Positions 8,522 through 21,529 of a DNA stretch of 64,000 bases are shown piece after piece (the stretch's first letter is position 1; each line of letters opens with the position of its first letter). This DNA comes from Alkalispirochaeta sp. GTDB taxonomy: Bacteria; Spirochaetota; Spirochaetia; DSM-27196; Alkalispirochaetaceae. The DNA lies in NCBI GenBank assembly GCA_965242725.1, contig CBDESZ010000026.1, forward strand, positions 64,001-128,000, read 5' to 3'. Made by a program: the position numbers and the translations under genes. The notes below the pieces were generated by a model. The model did no database searches. It saw only the letters and a list, made by a program, of their open reading frames with translations, and was not told the DNA's origin.

Positions 8522-8867
8522 GCCGACTCCTTCTGATTCGAAATATGGCTGACCTGCCGCCCCGATTCTGCCATGAAAACCCGCCGCCGCCAAGCAACAG
8601 CCCCCGGCACTTCAGGCTGTCCAATCTATATTTCTATTTTGAACTTGCGTTCTGCCGGGACTCCACTTCCGCCCACCGCCCAAGCCCGGATCGGGGGGCG
8701 GCGAAGGGCAATATCGAGCCGCCGCCTCACCACCGCCCCGCCGCCGCCCCAAACGGGCATACGAAAAACATAATAATATTAGTAATAAATAAAATAGGAA
8801 AAAACATGATATTATATACATACATCACAGATGAGCTCTCCGACACAATCTGTTCAAGGAGGGAAGA

Positions 8868-9626
8868 ATGAAAACATCAATCCTGCACATCACGCTGATA
8901 CTCGCGCTGATCGCCGTCGTGGTTCCGGCCAATGTAGTTGCCCAGGCCCCCGCGCAAGCCCGGTCCCCGGCCCTGGAACGGCCGCCTGCCGACCACTGGA
9001 GCACCCGCATCGCCGCCCCCGGCTATGGCTTCAGCTTCACCTCCGTCGAGGTCGAATACGGTGAAGACGACGAAACGGAAGTATACCTCATGCCCGGCAT
9101 CGACCTGCGCCACTTCAACGGCATCAACGTTACCGAATCGGGGCACTTCTACTTCGGATATGAAGTGGGCGTTGCCGCCAACTTCCTTGTCGGCAGCGGA
9201 TCGACAATGGACATCGTCGGGGAAGAATACGAGCTCAACAGCGCCATGGTCGCTACGCTCCTCCTCATGGGAAAACACGGTTACCACCGGGACATCGGCT
9301 CACCCGACAAGGGCCTCGGCTTCGGCGTGGAACTCGGTCTTGGCATCATGGGCGGCGCCGGCGACATCGAAATCGAAAACACCGACGGCGATACCTTCAG
9401 TCACACCACGGAGATCATCGGACCAGTCTTTGAAGCCGCCGGCGAGTTCTCGATACGCACGGACCGCGACCTGCGCCTCGTCTGCCGCCTCGGCCTCATG
9501 GCCGGCGCTCCTCTCATCGAGACGGACGATGGCGATACCGGCGTCGACTACTTCTCCGCCGCATCCGCCCCGGTCCGCGTCTCCCTGCGCTTCGGATTTG
9601 TCAGAGATTACGGCTGGGAGTACTGA
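8868..9626 (+). CDS. Hypothetical exported protein, possibly an outer-membrane beta-barrel
   Basis: AGGAGG SD, signal peptide, alternating hydrophobic beta-strand pattern, aromatic C-terminus. Confidence 0.65.
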   Translation: MKTSILHITLILALIAVVVPANVVAQAPAQARSPALERPPADHWSTRIAAPGYGFSFTSVEVEYGEDDETEVYLMPGIDLRHFNGINVTESGHFYFGYEVGVAANFLVGSGSTMDIVGEEYELNSAMVATLLLMGKHGYHRDIGSPDKGLGFGVELGLGIMGGAGDIEIENTDGDTFSHTTEIIGPVFEAAGEFSIRTDRDLRLVCRLGLMAGAPLIETDDGDTGVDYFSAASAPVRVSLRFGFVRDYGWEY

Positions 9627-9666
9627 AAAGAGCCATCGGCAGTACAACGATCATTATTCAGAGAAA

Positions 9667-9696
9667 TGCGGAATTTTTGTAATGCAGAATTACGCA
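9667..9696. promoter_or_regulatory. Putative antitoxin operator
   Basis: Inverted repeat TGCGGAATT...AATTACGCA plus direct repeat AATGC(G/A)GAATT upstream of the AbrB gene. Confidence 0.5.
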
Positions 9697-9708
9697 TATT
9701 CTTCAGAT

Positions 9709-9942
9709 ATGAAAGTAACTCTTACCGTTACCGACAGGGGTTCGGTGACCCTCCCTGCGAGAATGCAGAAAGAGATGGGAATCGGAGCGGACTCGCTGCA
9801 TATCGCCGAGTCAACGGAAGAGGGAATACTCCTTCGGCCTGCCGTAGCCCTTCCGGTAGAGGTTTACACCCGGGATCGTCTCGAGGAGTTTGCGGCCGCA
9901 GAACGTGCCGTGGATGAATGGTACGGTGAGTCATCGCAGTAA
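9709..9942 (+). CDS. AbrB/MazE/SpoVT-family antitoxin
   Basis: MKVTLTVTDRGSVTLPARMQKEMGI...EEGILLRPA swapped-hairpin signature. Confidence 0.85.
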   Translation: MKVTLTVTDRGSVTLPARMQKEMGIGADSLHIAESTEEGILLRPAVALPVEVYTRDRLEEFAAAERAVDEWYGESSQ

Positions 9943-9945
9943 GTG

Positions 9946-10011
9946 ATGCGAATATTCGTGGATGCAAACATCCTTTTTTCCGCCGCATATGCCGACCTTC
10001 GTGCTATCTGA
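9946..10011 (+). pseudogene. Truncated PIN-domain toxin (N-terminal 21 aa only)
   Basis: MRIFVDANILFSAAYADLRAI*: first PIN strand/helix directly after the antitoxin, then stop. Confidence 0.75.
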
Positions 10012-10476
10012 CCTTTGTGACCCCCATTCCCCTGGGAAGAGCCGGAAAAATGACGTCTTTTGTTCCATACCGGACTTCCGGCGGGTACCAGACATAGCAG
10101 GGTTTTCCATCGTGGCCGGGATCGATAAGGATCATCAGCAGCTCGGGATAGGTGATCATCTTGGAAAATGGTCCCGTCTCGCCCCGGTTCAAGATGTGTA
10201 TGGCATCCTCTTCCGATGTATGTTCCGGGAACTCCGTGCGGCCGTAAAAAGCGGCGACGTAGCGGACGGCGGCATACCGGGGAAATCTCGGCCTGGCCGC
10301 CTCGCGTTCAAAAAACTCCCGGTCCGCTTCAAGACACGTTTCAAACTCGTCCCATTTCACACCGATCGTTTCTGGATATTCCGCTGAATCCTGCCACCCA
10401 TTCCGACGTAAACCTGCCACCTTGGGAGGGTTTGCAACCTCGCGTCAGCCAGCATAGGGTGCCGGCAGGTTTGGCG

Positions 10477-11211
10477 TCAATCTGAAGTGCTCTTTCGGCG
10501 TCTACTCGCTCCTTTTAGTTCAAATATCCATGGTGTATGGGCAAGGCGATCCATGATCGCGTCGGCGATAGTTGGCTCTCCGATGATTTCGTGCCACGCG
10601 CCAATCGGCACCTGGCCGGTGATGATCGTACCGGCTTTGTTATACCGGTCGTCGAGTATCTCGAGAAGGGAGAGGCGGTCATCGGCGTTCAACGGGCTGA
10701 GTCCGAAGTCGTCGATGATGAGTAATCCGGTTTTGGCAAATCGCCTGATCTCGTCGAAGTAGCTCCCGTCGGCGCGCGCAAGCCGGAGCGTCGGAAACAA
10801 TTTGGTTGCCCGCACGTAGCGCGTAGATATCCCCCGGAGACACGCTTCATGACCGAAAGCACAAGCGAGGTAGCTTTTCCCGGCGCCGGTCGGTCCGGTA
10901 ATGAGCATGGTCTCGCCACGCTCAACCCATTCCATTGTGGAGAGATTGCTCACGGTATCCCGGTCGAGATTGCGTTCCGGGCTGAACTCAATGGCATCGA
11001 TCGCCGCGGGGATACGTAGACCGGCCTGACGGAGCAGCCGTTCGGTCTTTCGTGTTTTTCTGAGATTCAATTCCGCCTCGGCCATCTGGGCAACGAGCTC
11101 ACCGGTGGTCGGGGCACTATTCGGCCCAAGACGGGCCGAGGCTTCGTATACGTCGGCCATTGCAGAAAGTTTCAGCGTCCGCAGCGTTTCAACGGTTTGT
11201 AGACGGTTCAT
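10477..11211 (-). CDS. istB: IS21 helper ATPase
   Basis: GPTGAGKS Walker A, LLIIDDFG Walker B, IADAIMDRL, LKGASRR. Confidence 0.95.
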   Translation of the reverse strand: MNRLQTVETLRTLKLSAMADVYEASARLGPNSAPTTGELVAQMAEAELNLRKTRKTERLLRQAGLRIPAAIDAIEFSPERNLDRDTVSNLSTMEWVERGETMLITGPTGAGKSYLACAFGHEACLRGISTRYVRATKLFPTLRLARADGSYFDEIRRFAKTGLLIIDDFGLSPLNADDRLSLLEILDDRYNKAGTIITGQVPIGAWHEIIGEPTIADAIMDRLAHTPWIFELKGASRRRKSTSD

Positions 11212-12797
11212 ACGTGCACTCCGTGGCGTTGGTAGGAGGCACGACCGCGAATATTGCTGTGAGGAGGAATTGAGCGGTCTGATTCGTCGGGTTCACCTGC
11301 CGATGTATCGAGTCCACGCTCAAGAATCCGTTTTAGATTCTTATAGGTCGGTACGCCGATCGTATTAGCGAAGCGACACGCCGCCTCGAGACGAGTGCGA
11401 GAATACGTCTTGGGAAGATTGAGGATACCCAGGCAGCTTTTGAATGCCTGTTGCGGCACCTCCCGGGCATCGAGCACCGCCTGAATGCACCGTTCTGTTT
11501 CCGGCCCGATATCCGCCGCCCACGAAAGGAGCCTGTCCGGACCCAACTCGTCGTGGAAGCGGTGTTCCGGTGTCATATGGTCGCGATTGGTCGTGTACTG
11601 ATGCGCTCCCGTTTCGCGACGGTGAAATGCGATCCTCACGTTCTTGTGGTAAATCTCTATCTCTCGGTGGGTATAGGAGATACGCACTTTCAGTCCGCGA
11701 TAATCGGCAGGAACGCTATAGTAGTGTTTATCCACCGGGAAGAAGACGTGGTAATTCTTTTGCACGGTGATCGGGCTGGTATAGAGCCGGACCTCATATG
11801 GTTCGGCAGGCAACGGACGAAGGCACTCCTTCTCGATCGCATCAAACCGTTCTTTCCGGCTGATGCCGACTTTCTGCATCGCTCGATCATTCAGACCGTC
11901 CAGGTTCTCCCACATCGCCGTGTTCAACTCGTCAACGGTGGTAAACGTTCGGTTCCGCAGCGGTGCAAGAATGCGCGTGTAGACCAGTCGTACCGCAGCT
12001 TCCACCAACGCTTTATCTCTCGGTTTCTTGACGCGCGCCGGCACAACGGCGCATCCGTAGTAGTGGCTGAAGACATCAAACGAAAAATTGATTCCCGGCT
12101 CGTATCGACTTGGTGTATCCACCGCCGCTTTCAGATTGTCGGGGACGAGGATTTTGGGAGCGCCTCCGGCATATTCCATCGCGTGGGTGGTGCAGCGAAT
12201 GGTGTGTTCGGTGTCCTGCGATATCGTCGCCTCGGTGTAAATCAATCCGCCTGAGGGAAACACCGCCACATACAGTTCCACAGGGATATGAATCCCCGTT
12301 TTCGGATCGACGATGAACGGACGGTCTCCGGCATAGTCGAGAAACATCTTTTCCCCCGGCTCGTGATGGAGGTGCATCGATAGTTCCGAGTCCTCCGTGT
12401 ACATCCGCATGTGCTGACAGAACTGGGAATACTGATACCCCTCGGGGTGCTCGGCGATGTATTCTTCCCACAAAATCTGTCGGGTCACCACGCCCATACG
12501 GTCGCGGCGTCGCCCCAGCTCGTTGACCATTCCCGGCATCAGATTCATCAGAACTTCGTATCGTGGATCATGACGCCGTGTTTCGCTATCCCGCAAACGC
12601 TCGAGCAACTCATCGTCGCTCATCGTCTCCACATCCGCCCATTTCAGTCCGGCATTTTCTGCCTGTTTGAGATACTCCGTCACCACCGGCCGGGATACGG
12701 CCAGTGCGCGGCTGATCTTCCGGATGGATAATCCGGAAGACTCGTTCAACCGAATGATTTCTCGTATTTTACTCATGCTGATCCTCGCTTTCGGCAT
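11208..12797 (-). CDS. istA: IS21 transposase
   Basis: N-terminal HTH, GEKMFLDYAG, VPDNLKAAV, PRDKALVE; start ATG 12797 behind GAGGAGG. Confidence 0.95.
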   Translation of the reverse strand: MPKARISMSKIREIIRLNESSGLSIRKISRALAVSRPVVTEYLKQAENAGLKWADVETMSDDELLERLRDSETRRHDPRYEVLMNLMPGMVNELGRRRDRMGVVTRQILWEEYIAEHPEGYQYSQFCQHMRMYTEDSELSMHLHHEPGEKMFLDYAGDRPFIVDPKTGIHIPVELYVAVFPSGGLIYTEATISQDTEHTIRCTTHAMEYAGGAPKILVPDNLKAAVDTPSRYEPGINFSFDVFSHYYGCAVVPARVKKPRDKALVEAAVRLVYTRILAPLRNRTFTTVDELNTAMWENLDGLNDRAMQKVGISRKERFDAIEKECLRPLPAEPYEVRLYTSPITVQKNYHVFFPVDKHYYSVPADYRGLKVRISYTHREIEIYHKNVRIAFHRRETGAHQYTTNRDHMTPEHRFHDELGPDRLLSWAADIGPETERCIQAVLDAREVPQQAFKSCLGILNLPKTYSRTRLEAACRFANTIGVPTYKNLKRILERGLDTSAGEPDESDRSIPPHSNIRGRASYQRHGVHV

Positions 12798-12905
12798 TCG
12801 GTTCCTCCTCATCAATCACGATGACGAGATCCAACGTTTCTTGCGAGGATGCAAATCTCCATTCCGATACAAACCTGCCACCCGTTACGATGACCGCCGA
12901 AAATT

Positions 12906-12982
12906 GGCAGGTTTACGTCGGAATACCCGGCAGGTTTAGCCCGGAATGGGTGGCAGGTTTAAATCGTAACAGCCGGCAGGTT
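12906..12982. repeat. IS21 subterminal transposase-binding repeats
   Basis: GGCAGGTT(T) at 12906, 12929, 12952 and 12975 (23-bp period); inverted copies near 10390-10420. Confidence 0.85.
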
Positions 12983-13242
12983 CGGGGCGTAATTTCCAGT
13001 TTCGAGGTAGGGGAGGGGGATGCGCTTGTCCATCGCGTCATAGCGACGTCGCTGATGGTCGAGTCGTCGTGCAAAATTGGGTCGTTCCGTATCGTAGCCG
13101 AGGGCTCTCCCGATCGTTCGACGTGCATCAGGTCCGGTAAAACTTTTACTTTTCCAGGCGACATATCGTTTGGTATAGAAAAACCGTTCGTATCCCGGCG
13201 TCCGATTGTCTTTCGGTACAAAGGTGTCAAAGAAGTTCGCCT

Positions 13243-13398
13243 TCATGCTTCTGTATCCCGGAAAAAGTCCCTGCCGAGTTTTTCCCGGAGTTCCCGAGTA
13301 TCAATATCCATGAGGGCACGGATTCCTTTAATGACCTGCCGTGCGTATGCCGATCCGGCATCAATTGTTTCTTTGAATAACTGCTTTTCCGTCTGCAT
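13243..13398 (-). CDS. 51-aa hypothetical protein (below the ORF-track size cutoff)
   Basis: AGGAGGAG SD; MQTEKQLFKETIDAGSAYARQVIKGIRALMDIDTRELREKLGRDFFRDTEA*; ATGA overlap with the 203-aa gene. Confidence 0.75.
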   Translation of the reverse strand: MQTEKQLFKETIDAGSAYARQVIKGIRALMDIDTRELREKLGRDFFRDTEA

Positions 13399-13480
13399 AG
13401 ACTGCTCCTCCTGTATAGGTGATCCGAGCAGTGCGTACGGTGTACAGGCAGAAACTTCCGGCAGGCAGTGAATACCTTCT

Positions 13481-13595
13481 CACATCGTTCCGGGACGCGC
13501 TGTCATATGCGTCTCCAGTCGGCTGTGGCACCTTGCCGTGGAGGCAGGTTGCCGGGCGATCTCAGGGCCGTTTCCCTCACGCCACTCGTGATGTT
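13481..13595 (-). ncRNA. SAM-I (S-box) riboswitch aptamer
   Basis: ACAUC-ACGAG-UGGCG-UGAGGGA-AAC-GGCCC-UGAGA-UCGCC-CGGCAACC-(UGCC/GGCA stem)-AGGUGCC...GGAAC-GAUGU matches the S-box landmarks AUCnnGAG, GAGGGA, GGCCC, GCAACC, GGUGC, GAnnGAU; P1 = ACAUC/GAUGU. Confidence 0.85.
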
Positions 13596-13601
13596 GGGTA
13601 A

Positions 13602-13630
13602 AACCTATCAGATATGGCATCGCCTGTCAA
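13602..13630 (-). promoter_or_regulatory. sigma70 promoter of the riboswitch leader
   Basis: TTGACA-17 nt-TAGGTT with TGn extension; predicted start near 13595, at the 5' end of P1. Confidence 0.7.
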
Positions 13631-13700
13631 TAGTATGGAAATTTGAGTGGGATAACGAAATAAATAGAGATAATGATAAATTTAATTGGCCGGCGATTCA

Positions 13701-14693
13701 CTACCGGTACCGCCCCGCCGTCTCCTGAAAACACTTCTTTGCCCGCTCCCGAAGTTCCGGCGGCTCCAGGACTTCCGCATTGGGACCCCACTGGGAGACC
13801 CAGAAAAGCACCTGCGACTGCTGGTTGGTGCGGAAACGGACGATAATGCCGCCGTCGGGGAGGCGTTCCACTTTCTGATCGTGGTGCCAGCGTCGCTCGG
13901 GGATTTTGGTGGCCGCCTCGCCGTCAAACCTGACGGCGATATCCACGGCGCCCTCGTTGACGAAGACGCCGAATGACGGGTCGATGTAGCTTTCCACAGA
14001 GAACCCGTCGGGACGGGTGAAGGTCTCCTTGCGAAGACGGGCTTGTTTGATCCGGTAGAGGGCGTAGATCCGTACCTCCTCGTGGTGGTGGGACCAGCAC
14101 AGCAGGTACCATTCACCGCGATGACCGACGAGATGCAGGGGATCAATGACGCGGATCGCCGTCTTGTCGTGCGCCGGTGCCTGGTAGTGGATTGCGATGG
14201 TGCGCTGTTTGTAGAGACCCTCCCGGACGACCGACCACACCTTCTTGTCGATCCCGGTGACGGGGTCGGAAATCACCGAGACGTGGGCGACGAGATCCTC
14301 GGAGCTGACGGTGACGTTGTCCGGAAGGAGGGTAGCGAGGCGCTTGTAGACGGACCTGAGTTGTTCATACCAGGGGCTGTTGCGATAGCCTTCCAGGGCG
14401 CGGTCGCCAACCATCAATGCCATCAGATCGCCCTCGGTGAGGTCCAGCGCCGGCAACTGCCAGGACATATCGCCGTAGTAGAAGCCTTTTTGGTGCCTGT
14501 CGAACTCAATGGGGGCGCCCCGGTCCCTCATCTTCTCGATGTCCCGCTGGATGGTACGGGTGGTGACCTCTTCAATGTTTTCATCGGACAGACCGCGAAC
14601 GATGTCCGCAGCGGAAGGGTAGTCCCGTTTGTTCCGAAGGCGTCCGTCGATATAGGCGATTCTGGTGGTGATGGCGCGGTAGCTCATAGGCAT
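13701..14693 (-). CDS. wHTH-WYL-WCX transcriptional regulator (YafY/PafBC/DriD-like)
   Basis: HTH (EVTTRTIQRDIEKMRD), IDPLHLV...GEWYLLCWS...RIYALYRI, C-terminal WGPNAEVLEPPELRE. Confidence 0.93.
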   Translation of the reverse strand: MPMSYRAITTRIAYIDGRLRNKRDYPSAADIVRGLSDENIEEVTTRTIQRDIEKMRDRGAPIEFDRHQKGFYYGDMSWQLPALDLTEGDLMALMVGDRALEGYRNSPWYEQLRSVYKRLATLLPDNVTVSSEDLVAHVSVISDPVTGIDKKVWSVVREGLYKQRTIAIHYQAPAHDKTAIRVIDPLHLVGHRGEWYLLCWSHHHEEVRIYALYRIKQARLRKETFTRPDGFSVESYIDPSFGVFVNEGAVDIAVRFDGEAATKIPERRWHHDQKVERLPDGGIIVRFRTNQQSQVLFWVSQWGPNAEVLEPPELRERAKKCFQETAGRYR

Positions 14694-14701
14694 AGTGTTG
14701 A

Positions 14702-14726
14702 ATATTTGAGCATCATTTTCAAATAT
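14702..14726. promoter_or_regulatory. Palindromic operator upstream of the WYL gene
   Basis: ATATTTGA-N9-TCAAATAT perfect inverted repeat 8 nt upstream of the start. Confidence 0.6.
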
Positions 14727-14763
14727 CTATAGTATTAGGCGGTCTGGACGGATATCTTGCGTC

Positions 14764-15162
14764 TCAGCCGGATCCGCGCAGCACTTCCAGAAAAACGCGT
14801 GGCGACACTACGAGCTTTTCGGGAGGAAAGTGTTTGTCGTTTCCCGTGACGAGATAATCGGCACCGCCCGAAATCGCCACCTCGTAGAATGGGATGTCGT
14901 CGGAATCAGGAACCACTTCCTTGGCGGGCGCGGCGGTAATGTAGGTGCTGTCGTATTCCAGGTACTCCAGGAGTGACTGGATGTAATCAACGGGAAAGTG
15001 AAACTTCGGACGTAGAAGAACTTTTCGATATTCGGATAGAATTCGATCGTCGACAAGGACGGTCACCGACTTGTTGAGTACGGCGTTGAGAATCGAGCCG
15101 GGTGCTCCATGTGGATTCAGAACTCCGGAAATCAGAACGTTGGTATCGAGAACAATGCGCAC
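14764..15162 (-). CDS. PIN-domain toxin (PIN_3 type)
   Basis: MRIVLDTNVLISG, PDSDDIPFYEVA...ADYLVTGNDKHF. Confidence 0.9.
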   Translation of the reverse strand: MRIVLDTNVLISGVLNPHGAPGSILNAVLNKSVTVLVDDRILSEYRKVLLRPKFHFPVDYIQSLLEYLEYDSTYITAAPAKEVVPDSDDIPFYEVAISGGADYLVTGNDKHFPPEKLVVSPRVFLEVLRGSG

Positions 15163-15446
15163 TAGGAACGCTCACGACGAACCGCGTCGATTTCGGCCTG
15201 TATCTCCGCTTCGGTCATTGTATCGAGCCCGTTCTCTTGGGCGGTTTTCCGCAACTGACGAAGCGCATTTGCCGCTCGGGCGCTGCGAACTGCAGACAGC
15301 GTTTCTTCAAGTGTCTCCCCTGAAAGTGGAGTGAGCAATGCGATCGGCTTTCCGTTGTTTGTGATCACCATCTCCTGCTCCGTCGGAAGCTGTTTCCAGA
15401 TTGCCGCCGGAGAGGTTCGGATGTCACGGACGGTGATGAACTTCAT
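15162..15446 (-). CDS. Phd/YefM-family antitoxin
   Basis: MKFITVRDIR...MVITNNGKPIALLTP; coupled to the PIN gene. Confidence 0.88.
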   Translation of the reverse strand: MKFITVRDIRTSPAAIWKQLPTEQEMVITNNGKPIALLTPLSGETLEETLSAVRSARAANALRQLRKTAQENGLDTMTEAEIQAEIDAVRRERS

Positions 15447-15501
15447 GTCTTTATAATCATTCTATTGTCACTTGATTGTCAACGATTCTTGTGCTCATAC
15501 G

Positions 15502-17814
15502 TTAAAACCCAATCCCCCGCGTCCGGTCCCGGCTCCGGGCGTTTGACAGGATCTCTCCAACGACGACGGCAGCCTGCACCGGGACTGCCGGCTCCTCCGT
15601 CAATGGCGTCTCGTCCCTCCCAATCTCCAGCATCTCCGCGGCCGTGGCGAGGTCGCTCATCATGAGGGGAGGCCCCTGCCCGAGGGCGGCGATATCGCCG
15701 TCGGTAAAGGTGACATCCGGAAAGATGTAGGCCAGTGCCGGGCGCAGCACATCTTCGTCGATGGCACCGAAGGTGACGTGCTTGTGGAATCGTCTGCGGA
15801 GGGCGGGGTCCACGGCGTCCACCCGGTTGGTGCAGGCGATGAGGATTCCGCTATACTCCTGGATCTACTGGAGGAACTCGGCGATTTGGGAGTGCTCCCA
15901 GGAGCGATGGGCGATGGACCGATCGTAGAGGAGGGCGTCTGCCTCGTCGATGATAAGGACCGAGCCGGCACGGGCGGCGGTGCGGAATGCCGCTGCGATC
16001 TGCTCTTCCGACTCTCCCACATATTTTGAGAGCAGGTCCGACGGGCGCTTGAGCAGGACGTCCCGGCCCAGGCGCTTTGCGAGCCACAGGGCGTACTGCG
16101 TCTTGCCGCCGCCGGGAGGCCCGCCAAAAAGGAGGCGCAATCCCTGTCCGGCCTGCGCGCGATGCGACGCCTGGCGTTCAACTCGATCCAGAGATTCCGA
16201 AGTGGAACAGAATCGGGGGTCGAAGGAGCGGGCGACCGTCGGCAGGCGGCGGACGTCACGGGCGAGGGCGCCGGTGGAGATCCGGTCGATGTAGCCGGAG
16301 ACGCGCCGGTGTACGTCGGCGGGACTGAGGTGCCCGGTGTTCAGTTCCGCGGCGATGATCCGGGCGGTACGGTCGATGGCGGCAGGGGTGATGTCGTATC
16401 GTGCGGCGATGTCGTGGAGCAAGGGGGCGATCCCGGCCGGATCGTGAACGAGGGGTGAGAGGCGTTCCGTGAGCATCCGGACTCTCGTGTCGATGGCGGG
16501 GCGGGGAAAGGCGAGGACGTGACCGAAGCGGCGCATGGCGGAGGTGGGAATCATGCGGTGGTCGTTGGTGATCCAGACGGTGGCCACCGGAAGGTGCTCG
16601 AGCAGGTCGTTGAGGACTCCCTTGTCGTAGCTCCCGCCGTCCAGACCGCCCCCCAAGAGGCCGAAGAAGGCGGCGGCGCTCTGGAGAATGGAGTCGGCTT
16701 CATCGATGATGAGGACGTCCGTGGCGGGGGAAAGCAGATTGGCTGCCATTCGGATTGCATTGAAGCGGCTCCCTTCCGCTTCGGCGCGACGTGGTCCATG
16801 GGAGTATTCGGACCGGCGGTTTTGCGCCGCGAGGGTGTGACCGGTGAGACCGAGGGAGTGGATGAGAGCGCGGGCAAACTCGGTCTTGCCGATCCCCGGC
16901 TCTCCGGCGATAAGCAGGGGGTAGACGCCGCGGACCGCTGCGGCGCAGGTGCGTATTTCGTCGGCGGGCAGCGGGAACTCGTCGAGCGGGAACCGCGGGG
17001 AGGGTGTGTCGTCAAAGAGCCCGGCCGTGAGGTCATCGAGGGTGTCGGATCGGAGTGCGAAAAGAAGGGGACGGCTGACGTTGATATCGAAAATTTCGTC
17101 GCGACCGCCCCGGAAGGCGATGAGACCGAGACGCTCCAGGGGGGAACCGGGGGCGGTCTCCCGGACAAAGGCGGGAACGTCGGTGTCGGCGGCGTCTGCA
17201 ATGATCGACATCTGGGTGCGATGGGTTGCCTGATGCATGAGGCCGGCCATCGGTTCGATATCCTCGAGGGTGTACAGTGCCATGAGAATCCGGATGTCGA
17301 GGGGCGACAGGGTGAAGATGCGGGCAATCTCTTCGACGATCGGCGGGAAGGGAGGGAAGGGCGGGACGGACTCCGCGCCGGCGCTGCTTTCTTTTGCGTC
17401 TATGTCGTCTTTGTTGTCGGCGTGGTCGTTCCGGTCGACCTGGTAGACCAGGTCGGCGATGAGATCCACGACGATGGGGTGGATCGTCTCGTTGTTGCGA
17501 CCGATGCGGTAACAGATTTGCCGCAGGCGGCGCGGGGACGCGTGCGGGGCCTCCAACTCGCTGACCGCGTCCGGCGGCAGTCTGAGGAGTTCTTTCTGCT
17601 CCAGTATGCGGGCGATGAGGGTGTGAAGTTCTTCCGGCTCGGAAACCGTAAGGGCAAACTGGACGAGGTCGTCCGATGGCGAGAGGTGTTCAGCGCATAT
17701 GCGAAAGACGTAGCGGTGGTACGCCTTCCAGTGCGTGTCTATCGGTCTCTGAAGGCGTGAGCGGCCTCCGCGCTTCCGGGTGAGGTGTTCATGGTGTCGT
17801 TGTTGTGGCGTCAT
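15502..17814 (-). pseudogene. Double-AAA+ ATPase (770 codons) with in-frame TAG at 15865-15867
   Basis: Walker A GEPGIGKT and GPPGGGKT, two IIDEAD Walker B; frame continues after the TAG as IQEYSGILIACTNRVDAVDPALRRRF...RGIGF. Confidence 0.85.
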
Positions 17815-17821
17815 GTACAGG

Positions 17822-17855
17822 AAGGTAGCCGGTGGTCCGCGACTTAGAGTGTCGC
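17822..17855 (-). promoter_or_regulatory. Palindromic box plus -10, leaderless promoter of the AAA ATPase
   Basis: GCGACACTCTAAGTCGC-N11-TACCTT-N7-ATG; no SD, no -35. Confidence 0.7.
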
Positions 17856-17939
17856 CGGGACTGACTGTTACGTTTTTTGCAAAAGACCACGTTTCTGCCG
17901 GGTTGCACGTTGACTGGTTTGGGCCCGCCCACTTCGCCG

Positions 17940-18464
17940 TTACCGCCCGCCCGACGGTCCTCGCTTCAGAAACTCCCGCTGCGCCGGCGTCTCGGGAAGA
18001 GAGCCGACCCCCGCGATCTCCCGCGAGGCGACCGGGTAATCATAGCCGAGGGACATGAGGACGGCGACGGCAAACATTCCCGTCCGGCCGATGCCGGCGG
18101 CGCAGTGAATGAAGACCCGCTCTCCGTTGTCGATCAGCTCCGCAACGTGACGGGCGGTATTCCAGAAGCGCCCCGCAGCGAAGAGGGCGGGCGCCTGGAG
18201 GTCGTCTATCGGGAGGTCTATCAGCGTGACCCGGCTCTTCCCGGTACCGTCCGCCTGACGGTGCCGGCGCCGTTCCCGCCACACCCGGTACTGCGGACTC
18301 TCTGCCGCGATCTGCTCTTCCGGTGCGAGGCAGACCACCGTACCGATGCGGTGCTCCTCCATCTCACGGAGCCACCGGGAAAAATTTCCCGCGAGGCGCC
18401 CCGCAAATTTGCGCCCGGGCATCGCGTCCAGATACAGCCTGTTTTTCCACGTTCTCATGCTCAT
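17940..18464 (-). CDS. Dual-specificity/tyrosine phosphatase-like protein (CX5R)
   Basis: LPIDDLQAP acid loop, FIHCAAGIGRTG P-loop, PETPAQREF; start set at 18464 from promoter geometry. Confidence 0.88.
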   Translation of the reverse strand: MSMRTWKNRLYLDAMPGRKFAGRLAGNFSRWLREMEEHRIGTVVCLAPEEQIAAESPQYRVWRERRRHRQADGTGKSRVTLIDLPIDDLQAPALFAAGRFWNTARHVAELIDNGERVFIHCAAGIGRTGMFAVAVLMSLGYDYPVASREIAGVGSLPETPAQREFLKRGPSGGR

Positions 18465-18471
18465 GCTATGG

Positions 18472-18507
18472 ATACTATTGTACCGTGGGCGACAGGGAGT
18501 GTCGTAT
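18472..18507 (-). promoter_or_regulatory. Palindromic box plus -10, leaderless promoter of the phosphatase
   Basis: ATACGACACTCCCTGTCGC-N11-TAGTAT-N7-ATG, same geometry as at 17822-17855. Confidence 0.72.
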
Positions 18508-18618
18508 GTTCGAGGCACGCCACGATACCGTTTTACCAATGCAAAACATATTAGTTGTTTTCTGGTGCATAGAGGATAATATAATATATGTGGGCATATA
18601 ATTATAATGGAGGCGACG

Positions 18619-18849
18619 ATGGCACAGGTGACGATTTATCTTGATGAAGCTCATGAAAGGCGGCTTCGGAAGGCGGCGGAGGATGCGGGGATGCCGGTGA
18701 GCCGGTGGGTTGCGGCTCTCATTGAACGGTATACTCGGACCGAGTGGCCTGCTGAAGTGCGTGACGCCGCCGGATCGTGGCCGGATGCCCCTGATGCAGT
18801 ATCATTGCGAAATCCGTCCGGCCGGGATGTGCCGAGAGAGTCGCTATGA
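18619..18849 (+). CDS. CopG/RHH antitoxin (VapB-like)
   Basis: GGAGG SD; MAQVTIYLDE...AAEDAGMPVSRWVA; ATGA overlap with vapC. Confidence 0.85.
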   Translation: MAQVTIYLDEAHERRLRKAAEDAGMPVSRWVAALIERYTRTEWPAEVRDAAGSWPDAPDAVSLRNPSGRDVPRESL

Positions 18850-19250
18850 CCTACGTTCTCGATACCAATACGCTCATATATTTTTTCAAGGGCCAGGGCG
18901 GCGTGGCGGATACGCTCCTGAGTACTCCGCCTGCGGAGGTTGCAGTGCCGGCAATCGTGGTGTACGAGTTGGAGACGGGAATCCGTAAGTCGTCACACCC
19001 GGAGAAGCGGACGCGGCAATTAAGCTCCCTTCTCGATGCCGCCCGGGTGCTGCCGTTTGATAGGGCGTGCGCGACCGAGGCGGCGCGGGTGCGGGCGGAG
19101 CTCGAGGCATCCGGAACACCGGTCGGTCCCGTGGACGTACTCATTGCCGGTACGGTGATAGCCTGTGACGGCGTACTGGTTACCCACAATGCGGACGAGT
19201 TTAGACGAATCTCCGGATTGCGCATCGTCGATTGGTACCGAATGACCTGA
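18846..19250 (+). CDS. vapC: VapC PIN-domain toxin
   Basis: YVLDTNTLI, YELETG, GPVDVLIAG, LVTHNADEFRRISGL...DW. Confidence 0.92.
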   Translation: MTYVLDTNTLIYFFKGQGGVADTLLSTPPAEVAVPAIVVYELETGIRKSSHPEKRTRQLSSLLDAARVLPFDRACATEAARVRAELEASGTPVGPVDVLIAGTVIACDGVLVTHNADEFRRISGLRIVDWYRMT

Positions 19251-19297
19251 TCGAGAAGCATAACCGGATAGAACCGGCACCCTCGTGGTATACTTGC

Positions 19298-20269
19298 ATG
19301 ACTTCTTCCGCTAAGGGGTCGGCGTTGCGTATATCGCGAATGTGGATAATCTCCGGGCTGGTACTCATTCTTATTGTTTCGGGCATTGCGACGCGTATAT
19401 TGGTCCGCGACGCGCGACCGCTCAGGGGACCGGCGCTGGATGACCTTGATTTTCAGGAAGTGTCGTTCCCGAACAGGGAAGAAGGGTTGCTTCTCGGTGG
19501 ACTCCTCTTCCTGCCGGGCCAACGGCAGGATATACCCGCGGTGGTCATTATCCATGGCTCCGGAACGAGCAGACGCGACAACTCATGGTACCTTTCCGTT
19601 GCCGGCTATCTACAGGAACGAGGTGTGGCGGTACTTCTTCCTGACAAACGGGGATCGGAACGCTCCGAGGGAGACTGGCGCACCGCTGGTTTTGCAGAGC
19701 TTGCTTCCGATGCGATCGCCGGTGTCACGTTTCTTGAGTCGTACGAAATCGGCGATTTCTCGAAGATCGGCGTGATTGGCATGAGTCAGGGCGGACAGAT
19801 CGCCCCGATCGCCGCGACCATGTCGGATGAGGTTGACTTCGTCATCAGCGTATCCGGATCGGCAGTACCTCTGAGGACACAGCTGTTCTATGAAGAAAAT
19901 CACAATCTTCGGGAGCTGGGCGTTCCTCCGCTTCTTTCCAACGTGCTCGCCTACCCTGCGGCCTGGAGTATCATCTATCTGCGGCAGCGGGACTTCTGGA
20001 CGGCGATCGGAAACCCCGACGCGCTGCCCAACTGGAATCAAGTGGATGTGCCTTCGCTCATCCTTTACGGTTCGGACGACACAAATGTACCGGTAACCCG
20101 CAGCGTGAACAGACTGCGTTCACTGGACAAGGAGAACCTGCACATCAACGTCTACCGGGATTCCGGGCACGCTATCGAGGATCCGCCGGGACGGGGTGAT
20201 CGCATCGTCAGAGAGGAAGTTCTCGAGGACATCGTAAGCTTCATCCGAGGGGTCCCCGGACCGCCTTGA
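19298..20269 (+). CDS. Membrane-anchored alpha/beta hydrolase (peptidase S9/S15-like)
   Basis: N-terminal TM, IIHGSG, DKRGSERSEG, GMSQGG nucleophile elbow, D..VP and GH; start uncertain. Confidence 0.85.
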   Translation: MTSSAKGSALRISRMWIISGLVLILIVSGIATRILVRDARPLRGPALDDLDFQEVSFPNREEGLLLGGLLFLPGQRQDIPAVVIIHGSGTSRRDNSWYLSVAGYLQERGVAVLLPDKRGSERSEGDWRTAGFAELASDAIAGVTFLESYEIGDFSKIGVIGMSQGGQIAPIAATMSDEVDFVISVSGSAVPLRTQLFYEENHNLRELGVPPLLSNVLAYPAAWSIIYLRQRDFWTAIGNPDALPNWNQVDVPSLILYGSDDTNVPVTRSVNRLRSLDKENLHINVYRDSGHAIEDPPGRGDRIVREEVLEDIVSFIRGVPGPP

Positions 20270-20300
20270 CCACCGGAATCGGAGCGCTCATTATGGAGTC

Positions 20301-20657
20301 ATGGATGCGAGGGAGACGTTGCGGCAGTTTTACCGGGACCGGGCGACCCGGAAGCGGGAGGATGTCCGGGAACGACGGGAGCGATTTGAGGCGCTTCTTC
20401 CGCATATTGTTGACGGTATTCTGGAACGCGACCCGGAGGTCTCCCGGATCATCCTCTTTGGATCCCTTGCGGAACGGAACGAAGGCGTCGTCAGGGATAT
20501 CGATATCGCCGTCGAAAGCACCGACTTTCTCAAGGTGAGCGGGTGGCTCTTGAGTCTGTCTGAACCTGTTGATGTCGTCGACTTGAACGATCTCTATCCC
20601 CATATCCGGGAGCGGGCGGAATCGAAGGGCAGGGTCCTGTATGAACGACGAGACTGA
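20301..20657 (+). CDS. Minimal nucleotidyltransferase (MNT) antitoxin
   Basis: IILFGSLAE...RDIDIAVE...VDVVDL. Confidence 0.88.
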   Translation: MDARETLRQFYRDRATRKREDVRERRERFEALLPHIVDGILERDPEVSRIILFGSLAERNEGVVRDIDIAVESTDFLKVSGWLLSLSEPVDVVDLNDLYPHIRERAESKGRVLYERRD

Positions 20658-21117
20658 TCGCGCACTGCTGATAGCGGAGCTGGAAGGTGATCTGGCGGCG
20701 CTTCCGGAACTCCTGGCGAGCAATCACAAAAGTATGGAGCGAATCGGTGCGGGAGCAACGGACGATCTGGATTATGCAGCTCTCGGATACACTCTTCATA
20801 ATCTGTACAACCTGATCGAAAATTCCTTTTTTCGTATAGCAAAGCATTTTGAAAATGAACTCGGCAGTGAAGGATGGCACAAGGAGCTTCTGCATCGGAT
20901 GACCCTTTTCATCGAGGGAATCCGCCCGCGGGTAATCGACCGGCCGACGGCGGAACAGATTGATGAACTGAGAGCCTTTCGCTACGTTTTTCGGAATATG
21001 TATCGAAAAAGCCTTGATCCGGAGAAGCTGCTCCTCCTTCAGAAACGGCTGCCGGATATCGTGGATGCCTGGAGACGGGCAATACAGGATTTCATTGACC
21101 TCCTGAAGACCCTTTGA
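20641..21117 (+). CDS. HEPN-domain (HepT-like) toxin
   Basis: LHNLYNLIE..F.RIA, WHKELLHRM, LRAFRYVFRNMY; overlaps the MNT gene. Confidence 0.85.
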   Translation: MNDETDRALLIAELEGDLAALPELLASNHKSMERIGAGATDDLDYAALGYTLHNLYNLIENSFFRIAKHFENELGSEGWHKELLHRMTLFIEGIRPRVIDRPTAEQIDELRAFRYVFRNMYRKSLDPEKLLLLQKRLPDIVDAWRRAIQDFIDLLKTL

Positions 21118-21220
21118 TCGCTAGGAACAGCACGCCCGGCAGCCAACCGATCCGGGCGGCGGCGTCGGACAGAGGCGCGGCCCCGCGGGACGCCCGGCGT
21201 TCAATTAAAAAAAAGAAAAT

Positions 21221-21249
21221 AAAAAAACCCGCCGCAAAGCGACGGGCTT
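21221..21249 (-). terminator. Terminator downstream of tRNA-Asp
   Basis: Minus strand GCCCGTCGC-ttt-GCGGCGGGT followed by a T tract. Confidence 0.8.
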
Positions 21250-21255
21250 GAAGGT

Positions 21256-21329
21256 CGGGAGTGACGGGGATCGAACCCGCGATCTCCGGCTTGACAGGCC
21301 GGCGCGATAACCAACTTCGCTACACCCCC
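21256..21329 (-). tRNA. tRNA-Asp(GTC), CCA not encoded
   Basis: Acceptor GGGGGTG/CACTCCC, anticodon arm CCGGC-CT-GTC-AA-GCCGG, T arm GGTTCGATCC. Confidence 0.97.
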
Positions 21330-21529
21330 TGAAGGCGATGCAACTGCCGCTTCGCGACAATTGCGATGTACGATTTATACCGATTGCGCCAACCTTTGTC
21401 AACGCCTTTTTCTGCGATTCCCTGCGTGCCCTGCAGCGCTTTGCGCGATCCGGCGCGGCGACGTCGGTTTCAGCGGCGCAGGGCGACGGCGCGGGGTGCA
21501 GTGCCCGCCAGTTTCACCTGGCGGCGGAC

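What the first reader, a model, noticed from the sequence alone, without database searches (positions are those of the whole stretch)
10004..13630. SAM-I riboswitch controlling two genes of unknown function inside a TA/WYL accessory region
Seen: a sigma70 promoter (13602-13630) starts at the P1 strand of a sequence with all S-box landmarks (13481-13595). It leads into a 51-aa ORF coupled (ATGA) to a 203-aa ORF. Neither resembles a methionine, cysteine or SAM synthesis enzyme or a transporter. Known: SAM-I switches are OFF switches that normally precede sulfur/methionine genes, and some phages (T3-type SAM lyase) deplete SAM to disable SAM-dependent restriction. Inference: this module is induced when SAM falls. 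It may be a new SAM-homeostasis function or, given the neighbouring WYL and TA genes, a defence effector triggered by SAM depletion. The 203-aa N-terminus (IGRALGYDTERPNFARRL) may be HTH-like, which is weak inference.
Basis: partly seen in the sequence, partly recalled or inferred. Interest (0 to 1): 0.88.

Follow-up and report, generated by a model that had tools for sequence, protein, structure and literature searches.

The report
SAM riboswitch gating broken island genes
A genuine RNA switch that senses the methyl donor SAM sits, in a group of environmental spirochaetes, not in front of methionine genes but in front of unknown genes on toxin-antitoxin islands, which suggests that a fall in SAM is used as a stress or infection alarm, although the copy in this genome has been knocked out by a transposon.

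Summary
The SAM-I riboswitch is real (RF00162, 55.8 bits, the genome's only one). Its promoter and ribosome-site hairpin are kept in relatives whose coding synonymous sites are saturated, so it is not an orphan. Folding favours a translational OFF switch. Both genes are broken here: the 203-aa gene is split by an IS21 (10373-12998; the empty site is seen in an independent run), and the 51-aa ORF is an in-frame deletion remnant of a 141-aa gene. The 203-aa protein belongs to an unnamed family (114 clusters) with a weakly XRE-like N-domain. None of 12 SAM-I hits in this order heads a Met/SAM gene, against 16 of 16 elsewhere in the phylum; 12 of 15 loci lie among TA, nuclease or WYL genes. Five of 16 riboswitch-less relatives of the gene carry a DriD-like WYL box instead. 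Best reading: a stress or defence-island cassette rewired from WYL control to low-SAM control. Defence activity and a SAM-lyase trigger are untested. Precedent: Desulfovibrio DseA (SAM-I before a hypothetical gene). This scan noted SAM switches on island genes before, on other DNA.

The parts
13602..13630 (-). sigma70-type promoter: TTGACA, 17 nt, extended -10 TG-n-TAGGTT; start predicted near 13595
   Evidence: sequence; same -35 and extended -10 in 4 of 4 relatives; not listed by the consensus scan
13479..13597 (-). SAM-I (S-box) aptamer, subtype with a 5-bp P1 and G-C in place of the U64-A85 pair
   Evidence: RF00162 55.8 bits; covariation over 30 aptamers; position census
13458..13477 (-). 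short hairpin after P1 followed by CCUGCYGG, which can pair with the 5' strand of P3 (anti-aptamer segment)
   Evidence: folding; shuffles as good: 3, 33, 4, 9, 25 of 300 in five leaders
13401..13432 (-). hairpin that hides the Shine-Dalgarno sequence (AGGAGG near 13412-13405): translational expression platform
   Evidence: an SD-hiding hairpin of different sequence forms in 4 of 4 relatives when P1 is enforced
13243..13398 (-). 51-aa ORF: in-frame internal-deletion remnant of a 141-aa gene of no known family; stop overlaps the next start (ATGA)
   Evidence: the short form found only in this genome
12999..13246 (-). 5' part (codons 1-82) of the 203-aa gene; reads on into the IS end to give a 95-aa truncated product
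10373..12998 (-). IS21-family element (istA 12794-11208, istB 11211-10477), multiple terminal repeats, 5-bp target duplication at 10368-10372 and 12999-13003
   Evidence: empty site in run X7
10004..10372 (-). 3' part (codons 82-203) of the 203-aa gene
   Evidence: 56-66% identical to intact 196-203-aa homologs
9709..10003 (+). AbrB/MazE-type antitoxin gene and the first ~16 codons of its PIN partner, cut off where the 203-aa gene ends
   Evidence: the same pair is whole beside the module in L076, L085 and matches in L019
13701..14693 (-). HTH-WYL-WCX regulator directly upstream (context; not kept next to the switch in relatives)
17840..18504 (-). two perfect DriD-type boxes CGAC-N7-GTCG (17854-17840 before the AAA gene, 18504-18490 before the DSP-PTPase gene): the island's WYL regulon (context)
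   Evidence: motif from PMC13010146 (passages)

Best explanation
This is a promoter + SAM-I riboswitch + cargo cassette of a TA/WYL accessory island. Shown by computation: the aptamer is SAM-I with its core intact; with P1 formed, a hairpin hides the ribosome site, and opening that site is cheapest when the aptamer is taken apart, so cargo is translated when SAM is low. Inferred: the ligand is SAM. The main cargo is a 203-aa two-domain protein with a divergent Cro/XRE-like helical N-domain, so most likely a DNA-binding regulator or effector. Its nearest riboswitch-less relatives stand behind a DriD-like WYL box, that is in a nucleic-acid-damage/infection regulon. In one clade the WYL input was replaced by a constitutive promoter plus the SAM switch, so a fall in SAM serves as the stress cue (starvation, methylation drain, or phage SAM lyase). 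The same switch heads other, unrelated orphan cargo in relatives. In this genome the cassette is dead: IS21 cut the main gene and a deletion gutted the 141-aa gene. Step odds: aptamer real 0.97; binds SAM 0.85; translational OFF 0.75; inactive here 0.9; cargo acts in stress or conflict rather than Met metabolism 0.55; phage SAM depletion is the selected trigger 0.25.
For: RF00162 match. Covariation in P1, P2, P3, P4 over 30 aptamers, 95.3% of cells paired, 0 of 500 shuffles as high. Folding in the window: P1 enforced -69.3 with SD hidden, ribosome site open -67.0 with the aptamer broken, both together -58.2 kcal/mol; same order in 4 of 4 relatives. Promoter-aptamer 84-87% identical over 149-194 nt while coding pS is 0.69-0.88 and pN 0.15-0.26. 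0 of 12 RF00162 places in the order head a recognisable Met/SAM gene against 16 of 16 others in the phylum sample (8 confirmed by NCBIfam). The G-C subtype also heads metK, metY and a metX-like gene (L063, L131, L138), which fits SAM as ligand. 12 of 15 loci have TA, nuclease, Schlafen or WYL genes in the DNA fetched; 5 of 15 with PIN/Phd/WYL against 114 of 4092 8-kb windows of this genome. SAM-linked members form one clade, 100/99. Box plus -10-like hexamer within 800 nt upstream of 5 of 16 riboswitch-less members, 0.04 expected; two of them lie next to a WYL gene. T3 SAMase lowers SAM and de-represses the met regulon (10.1101/2023.02.27.530186, passages).
Against: No activity was tested. No PADLOC match for any cargo. 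XRE likeness is weak: best Z 4.6, rmsd 3.5 over 75 residues, in the range the tool calls a common arrangement; Foldseek found nothing at E<=0.001. The relaxed WYL-box pattern was set after seeing three of the five loci; the strict literature box alone is not enriched (1 seen, 0.61 expected), and a second cargo family showed it in 0 of 17 further loci. 11 of 16 riboswitch-less members have no box. 3 of 15 loci sit among housekeeping genes. The leader's MFE is not better than shuffles (z -1.11) and the 5'-aptamer/anti-SD duplex is mostly not better than shuffles. Loci are kin, so counts overstate. SAM binding was not measured.
Confidence: 0.45

Rival explanations
1. SAM/methionine homeostasis: the 203-aa protein is an unrecognised regulator or helper of SAM-cycle genes, made when SAM is low, as has been suggested for the hypothetical gene behind Desulfovibrio DseA.
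For: DseA binds SAM and controls the 62-aa hypothetical DVU1170 (10.1101/803072). The same subtype heads metK plus an HTH gene in L063. This genome has metK and metY-like genes with no SAM-I of their own.
Against: Cargo is unrelated from locus to locus. The family is patchy: 11 of 99 genomes of the order. No Met/SAM pathway gene was found beside any member whose neighbours were scanned. The gene is lost here with no second copy.
Confidence: 0.18
2. The RNA itself is the selected unit (a trans-acting SAM-I sRNA like DseA or Listeria SreA) and the downstream genes are incidental passengers.
For: DseA also acts in trans on sahR mRNA. Here the RNA is intact while both genes are broken, and cargo varies.
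Against: No terminator that would release a short RNA was found in this leader; the platform acts on the cargo's ribosome site in 5 of 5 leaders; cargo was under purifying selection; the IS insertion looks recent (perfect duplication, empty site in a ~93%-identical contig).
Confidence: 0.12
3. A nutrient-proxy switch on a mobile cassette: SAM is read only as a sign of growth, and the cargo serves dormancy or the element's own spread, with no link to phage.
For: Half-aptamer relics next to TA and Rpn-like genes in two genomes of the genus (L112, L113) show the DNA is shuffled often; TA neighbours also fit general stress islands.
Against: Long conservation of promoter, aptamer and SD hairpin; WYL boxes on sister genes point to a nucleic-acid-damage regulon.
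Confidence: 0.15
4. The subtype has changed ligand (a SAM derivative such as MTA, decarboxylated SAM or SAM-AMP), like the spermidine-sensing SAM-I variant.
For: Unusual gene associations are the standard sign of a ligand change (PMC10853860). G-C at 64-85 is present in 30 of 30 aligned aptamers (G fixed by my search pattern, C not).
Against: The spermidine variant is mutated at SAM-contacting positions; here AUC/GAU of P1, the J1/2 G and GCAACC/GGUGC of P3 match the SAM-I consensus (residue roles recalled). The same G-C form heads metK, metY and a metX-like gene.
Confidence: 0.1

Closest known systems
SAM-I / S-box riboswitch (Rfam RF00162)
   Same: Four-stem aptamer over the gathering score, conserved core, pseudoknot pairs covary; OFF logic predicted.
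   Different: Short P1, G-C at the 64-85 pair, control predicted at the ribosome site rather than by a terminator, and cargo that is not Met/Cys/SAM (0 of 12 in the order against 16 of 16 elsewhere in the phylum).
DseA of Desulfovibrio vulgaris Hildenborough (10.1101/803072)
   Same: A SAM-I switch before a hypothetical gene, SAM binding shown. Four Desulfovibrionaceae loci of my alignment head a related small ORF, 62 aa from its second Met in L059, the length of DVU1170; that they are DseA is inferred, the supplement was closed.
   Different: DseA works by termination and also in trans; its cargo is fixed across Desulfovibrio. Here control is translational, cargo is variable and sits on TA/WYL islands.
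WYL regulons: DriD (Caulobacter), DdaA (Acinetobacter), PafBC (mycobacteria)
   Same: CGAC-N7-GTCG boxes (PMC13010146) stand before the island's AAA and PTPase genes and, in relaxed form, before five riboswitch-less relatives of the cargo.
   Different: The SAM-led copies lack the box (1 of 27 aptamers has a relaxed box within 310 nt upstream, about chance); the input is a metabolite read by RNA.
Cro/XRE-family HTH regulators (e.g. 5woq, 3f6w, R-M controller C proteins)
   Same: Five-helix N-domain aligns at Z 3-4.6; about 20 of the 50 listed rows are such proteins by title or my recall.
   Different: No Pfam HTH match in 87 members bar one weak hit; the C-terminal alpha/beta domain has no clear match.
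Spermidine riboswitch (SAM-I variant; PMC10853860)
   Same: SAM-I architecture with unusual downstream genes.
   Different: That class is changed at ligand contacts, heads polyamine genes and is limited to Gram-positives; this one keeps the core.

Membership tests
SAM-I riboswitch (RF00162) | Covariance-model match over the gathering score | tested here: met
   55.8 vs 44.4 bits
SAM-I riboswitch (RF00162) | P1-P4, kink-turn P2 and L2-J3/4 pseudoknot supported by covariation | tested here: met
   14 pairs with two-sided change, 0 of 500 shuffles; outer pseudoknot pair poorly kept
SAM-I riboswitch (RF00162) | SAM-contact nucleotides in P1, J1/2 and P3 conserved | tested here: met
   match the Rfam consensus; residue roles recalled from the T. 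tengcongensis structure
SAM-I riboswitch (RF00162) | Binds SAM and switches expression | not testable with these tools
   folding suggests two exclusive states; no binding data for this RNA
SAM-I riboswitch (RF00162) | Heads Met/Cys/SAM genes (typical, not defining) | tested here: not met
Cro/XRE HTH regulators | HTH_3-like profile match | tested here: not met
   0 of 87 members match an XRE profile at E<=0.05; one weak HTH_30 hit
Cro/XRE HTH regulators | Five-helix fold | tested here: inconclusive
   Z 4.6, rmsd 3.5, 75 aligned with 5woq; domain not folded alone
Cro/XRE HTH regulators | Sequence-specific DNA binding | not testable with these tools
   none
WYL (DriD/DdaA-type) regulon | CGAC-N7-GTCG box at the promoter of the SAM-led gene | tested here: not met
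   absent upstream of the window's aptamer
WYL (DriD/DdaA-type) regulon | Box at promoters of riboswitch-less relatives | tested here: inconclusive
   5 of 16 with a relaxed, partly post-hoc pattern; 1 of 16 strict
Known anti-phage systems | PADLOC profile match of the cargo | tested here: not met
   (library of 2023)
Type II toxin-antitoxin pair (51/141-aa + 203-aa) | Obligate two-gene linkage | tested here: not met
   small gene absent in L047 and L019
IS21 family | istA/istB, multiple terminal repeats, TG..CA ends, target duplication | tested here: met

The most novel reading that the evidence does not exclude
A SAM-I subtype serves as an RNA-based infection or conflict sensor: island cargo that elsewhere answers to WYL nucleic-acid sensing has been rewired to fire when SAM collapses, for example when a phage SAM lyase disables SAM-dependent restriction, making it a riboswitch-armed guard over R-M; the 203-aa family is its XRE-like effector and the other orphan genes behind the same switch are a list of further effectors.
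Probability: 0.25. Interest if true: 0.92.

Novelty: new variant of a known kind. Interest (0 to 1): 0.64.

Why it matters
SAM-I switches are textbook feedback devices for sulfur metabolism. A subtype that, in one order, never heads a Met gene but heads orphan genes on TA/WYL islands would show SAM being read as an alarm. It gives a direct test (SAM lyase or methionine starvation on a reporter) and a ready list of unnamed cargo families. If the phage link holds, it would be a metabolite-sensing riboswitch acting as an immune trigger, which my searches did not find in print. The window's own copy is a pseudogene; the intact copies in relatives are the ones to study.

Tried and rejected
Family scans of the cargo: no Pfam, NCBIfam, PHROGs or PADLOC family; no PDB sequence relative. 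Foldseek on the 203-aa model: nothing at E<=0.001 in PDB or viral models; VIA best Z 4.7; absence of a match does not show a new fold. Atlas: unnamed, mostly viral clusters at 0.93-0.94 for the 203-aa protein, a lead only; nothing at 0.9 for the 141-aa protein. The 141-aa protein folded without alignment is unusable (pLDDT 36); one cluster of relatives only, none in 301 genomes of the class, one weak phage hit (E 0.05). Homodimer prediction gave no verdict. Neither protein found in viral contigs; the aptamer pattern gave 1 viral match, scored as chance. No attachment-site repeat of the tRNA at 21256-21329 at the other island end. An RNA-library contig (run X5) covers 13022-13270 at 96%, depth 2.2; it may be DNA and shows no expression. 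The idea that the L043-type cargo is SAM-lyase-like (recalled motif) found no support. WYL boxes before a second cargo family: 0 of 17 further loci. No PglZ (BREX) found in this 92%-complete genome; two N6-methyltransferase loci are present. Rows left out: L051, L054, L056, L068 of the 33 pattern hits were not aligned; L054 and L068 score as chance, L051 and L056 as real.
Full report
OBSERVATION. Rfam finds a SAM-I aptamer at 13479-13597 on the minus strand (55.8 bits, cut-off 44.4), the only one in the 4.34-Mb, 92%-complete genome. Upstream are TTGACA, 17 nt and TG-n-TAGGTT. The promoter scan missed it, but the same hexamers stand in 4 of 4 relatives. The 51-aa ORF and the ATGA overlap are real. 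The 203-aa ORF is not continuous: an IS21 (10373-12998, istA/istB, 23-nt terminal repeats, GTTTC duplication) splits it after codon 82. There is no second copy in the genome. A contig of an independent DNA run joins 10367 to 12999, and intact 203-aa homologs at 56-66% exist. The organism is a spirochaete: the closest named homolog is labelled Alkalispirochaeta.

THE SMALL ORF. In genome G010 one copy of the switch leads straight into the 203-aa gene (L003/L047), as in metagenome locus L019; a second copy leads into a 141-aa gene and then the 203-aa family gene (L034/L067). The window's 51-aa ORF matches the first ~30 and last ~21 codons of that gene with about 250 nt missing in frame. The short form was found only in this genome (lengths 28-90 searched). 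Members of the 141-aa and 203-aa clusters share contig lengths (1653 and 46149), so the whole pair probably exists elsewhere. Both genes are therefore broken in the window, and the neighbouring PIN gene is cut off at about 9996.

NOT AN ORPHAN. Between the window and relatives the coding synonymous sites are near saturation (pS 0.69-0.88, pN 0.15-0.26), yet promoter, aptamer and leader are 84-87% identical over 149-194 nt. Switch and cargo have travelled together for a long time under selection.

HOW THE SWITCH WORKS. An alignment of the window and 29 of 33 pattern hits from many phyla shows two-sided changes in P1, P2, P3 and P4; 95.3% of cells pair, 0 of 500 shuffles reach it, slid controls 28-46% (kin inflate this). 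The SAM-binding core matches the consensus (residue roles recalled). The subtype has a 5-bp P1 and G-C for U64-A85. No terminator follows the aptamer here. With P1 enforced the SD lies in a hairpin (-69.3 kcal/mol); with the ribosome site held open the best fold breaks the aptamer (-67.0); both at once cost -58.2; the order holds in 4 of 4 relatives. Against this: the unconstrained leader is not more stable than shuffles and the 5'-aptamer/anti-SD duplex beats few shuffles, though the P3/CCUGCYGG duplex does better. I read it as a translational OFF switch, inferred, not shown.

WHAT THE SWITCH CONTROLS. RF00162 matches 12 places in 10 of 99 genomes of the order. None heads a recognisable Met, Cys or SAM gene; the first ORFs fall into at least six unrelated families without Pfam match. 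In a phylum sample the 16 other places (17 of 151 genomes with G000) head metX (13), metK (2) or metY (1) (8 of 16 checked with NCBIfam; the rest by likeness of their N-termini). 14 of them have U64, one G64, one is degenerate. Of 30 ORFs scanned behind pattern hits, 22 have no Pfam family, one is MetK, two GNAT. G-C forms before metK (L063), metY (L131) and a metX-like gene (L138, by eye) argue that SAM is still the ligand. 12 of 15 spirochaete-labelled loci have TA, nuclease, Schlafen or WYL genes in the 3-17 kb fetched; L047, L082 and L046 do not. With three fixed families the count is 5 of 15 against 114 of 4092 8-kb windows of this genome. The same AbrB/PIN pair lies beside the module in the window, L076, L019 and L085; L085 also shares the AAA and PTPase genes but has other cargo behind the switch.

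THE 203-AA PROTEIN. phmmer finds 114 clusters at E<=0.001; 87 full-length members were aligned. It occurs in 11 of 99 genomes of the order and 9 of 401 of the phylum. AlphaFold gives pLDDT 94, five N-terminal helices and an alpha/beta C-domain. Foldseek finds nothing; VIA lists many Cro/XRE proteins on residues ~15-105 at Z 3-4.6, which is weak. The profile aligns weakly (P 0.001, probability 22%) with another HTH-like protein found behind the same switch in L064. SAM-linked members, with two of unknown context, form one clade (100/99; 33 rows). Model R1 finds no aptamer upstream of the 16 more distant loci. Their neighbours include WYL (L022, L089), PIN/Phd, GmrSD-HNH, PTPase, GGCT, HicA and WapI-like genes, but also housekeeping genes. 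Looking upstream I noticed a palindrome plus TAnnnT. The DriD/DdaA box is CGAC-N7-GTCG (PMC13010146, passages). A relaxed form with a -10-like hexamer lies within 800 nt of 5 of 16 loci, 0.04 expected; three of the five shaped the pattern, L088 and L086 did not; the strict box alone is not enriched. Perfect boxes precede the window's AAA and PTPase genes. A second cargo family did not repeat the pattern (0 of 17). So the WYL-to-SAM swap is supported for this family's sister lineages only.

LITERATURE. 10.1101/803072 (parts 1-4 of 6 read: abstract, results, discussion, part of methods; supplements and figures not seen, and they bear on whether DseA is this subtype): a SAM-I switch before hypothetical DVU1170 binds SAM, terminates, and acts in trans on sahR. 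PMC11124144 (passages): the single SAM-I of O. alaskensis heads a hypothetical gene. PMC10853860 (parts 1-2 of 9 and passages): spermidine variant with changed contacts. 10.1101/2023.02.27.530186 (passages): T3 SAMase lowers SAM and defeats R-M and BREX. PMC6789036 (passages): PafBC and RecA-NDp. PMC12255297 on SAM-AMP was seen only in a listing. Searches found no paper on SAM-I switches in spirochaete islands or on a riboswitch as a SAM-depletion defence trigger; the library lacks most subscription papers. Earlier notes of this scan report SAM-I, SAM-II and SAM-V switches on island genes in other genomes; they are unchecked and not counted as support.

VERDICT. Real riboswitch, real but broken cargo, and a real pattern beyond this window: a SAM-I subtype that fronts orphan island genes. 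Best explanation (0.45): a low-SAM-induced stress or conflict cassette whose XRE-like cargo came from a WYL regulon. Rivals: SAM homeostasis 0.18, nutrient proxy on a mobile cassette 0.15, trans-acting RNA 0.12, changed ligand 0.10. New variant of a known kind; interest 0.64.

Noticed in passing
window 8700-21330: The accessory island holds four TA-type pairs (AbrB/PIN remnant, Phd/PIN, RHH/PIN, MNT/HEPN-like), WYL, a double-AAA ATPase and a DSP-PTPase, and ends at a tRNA gene (21256-21329); no att repeat found.
   Followed up: partly
window 10373-12998: istAB lies in the same direction as the SAM promoter with no terminator seen between, so the leader transcript may read into the transposase. 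A 506-bp end fragment of the same IS (97%) is on contig C16.
   Followed up: no
window 15502-17814: The AAA ATPase is split into 649-aa and 106-aa frames; the homolog in L085 is one ~798-aa frame.
   Followed up: no
L086:499-1041, L046:1-282, L045, L053, L064, L092: An unnamed ~150-190-aa family (GWIR[VI]R motif) recurs both next to the 203-aa family and behind the SAM switch; found in 13 of 99 genomes of the order.
   Followed up: partly
L063:1559-2668, L098:5949-7139, L092:1900-2469: A Cys-containing domain (CPC..GSPLSG) is fused to an XRE HTH behind SAM-I + metK in a Myxococcota MAG, fused to the 203-aa family in L098 and adjacent to it in L092.
   Followed up: partly
L049, L070, L073: Actinobacterial copies of the aptamer lack P4 entirely and sit directly on GNAT acetyltransferase genes.
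   Followed up: no
L050, L052, L057, L061, L066, L074: Planctomycete copies of the same subtype head unnamed genes; L057, L066 and L074 share a family.
   Followed up: no
L112, L113: Half-aptamer relics (5' half before an Rpn-like fragment; 3' half right after a PIN gene) in two genomes of the genus.
   Followed up: partly
   Followed up: no
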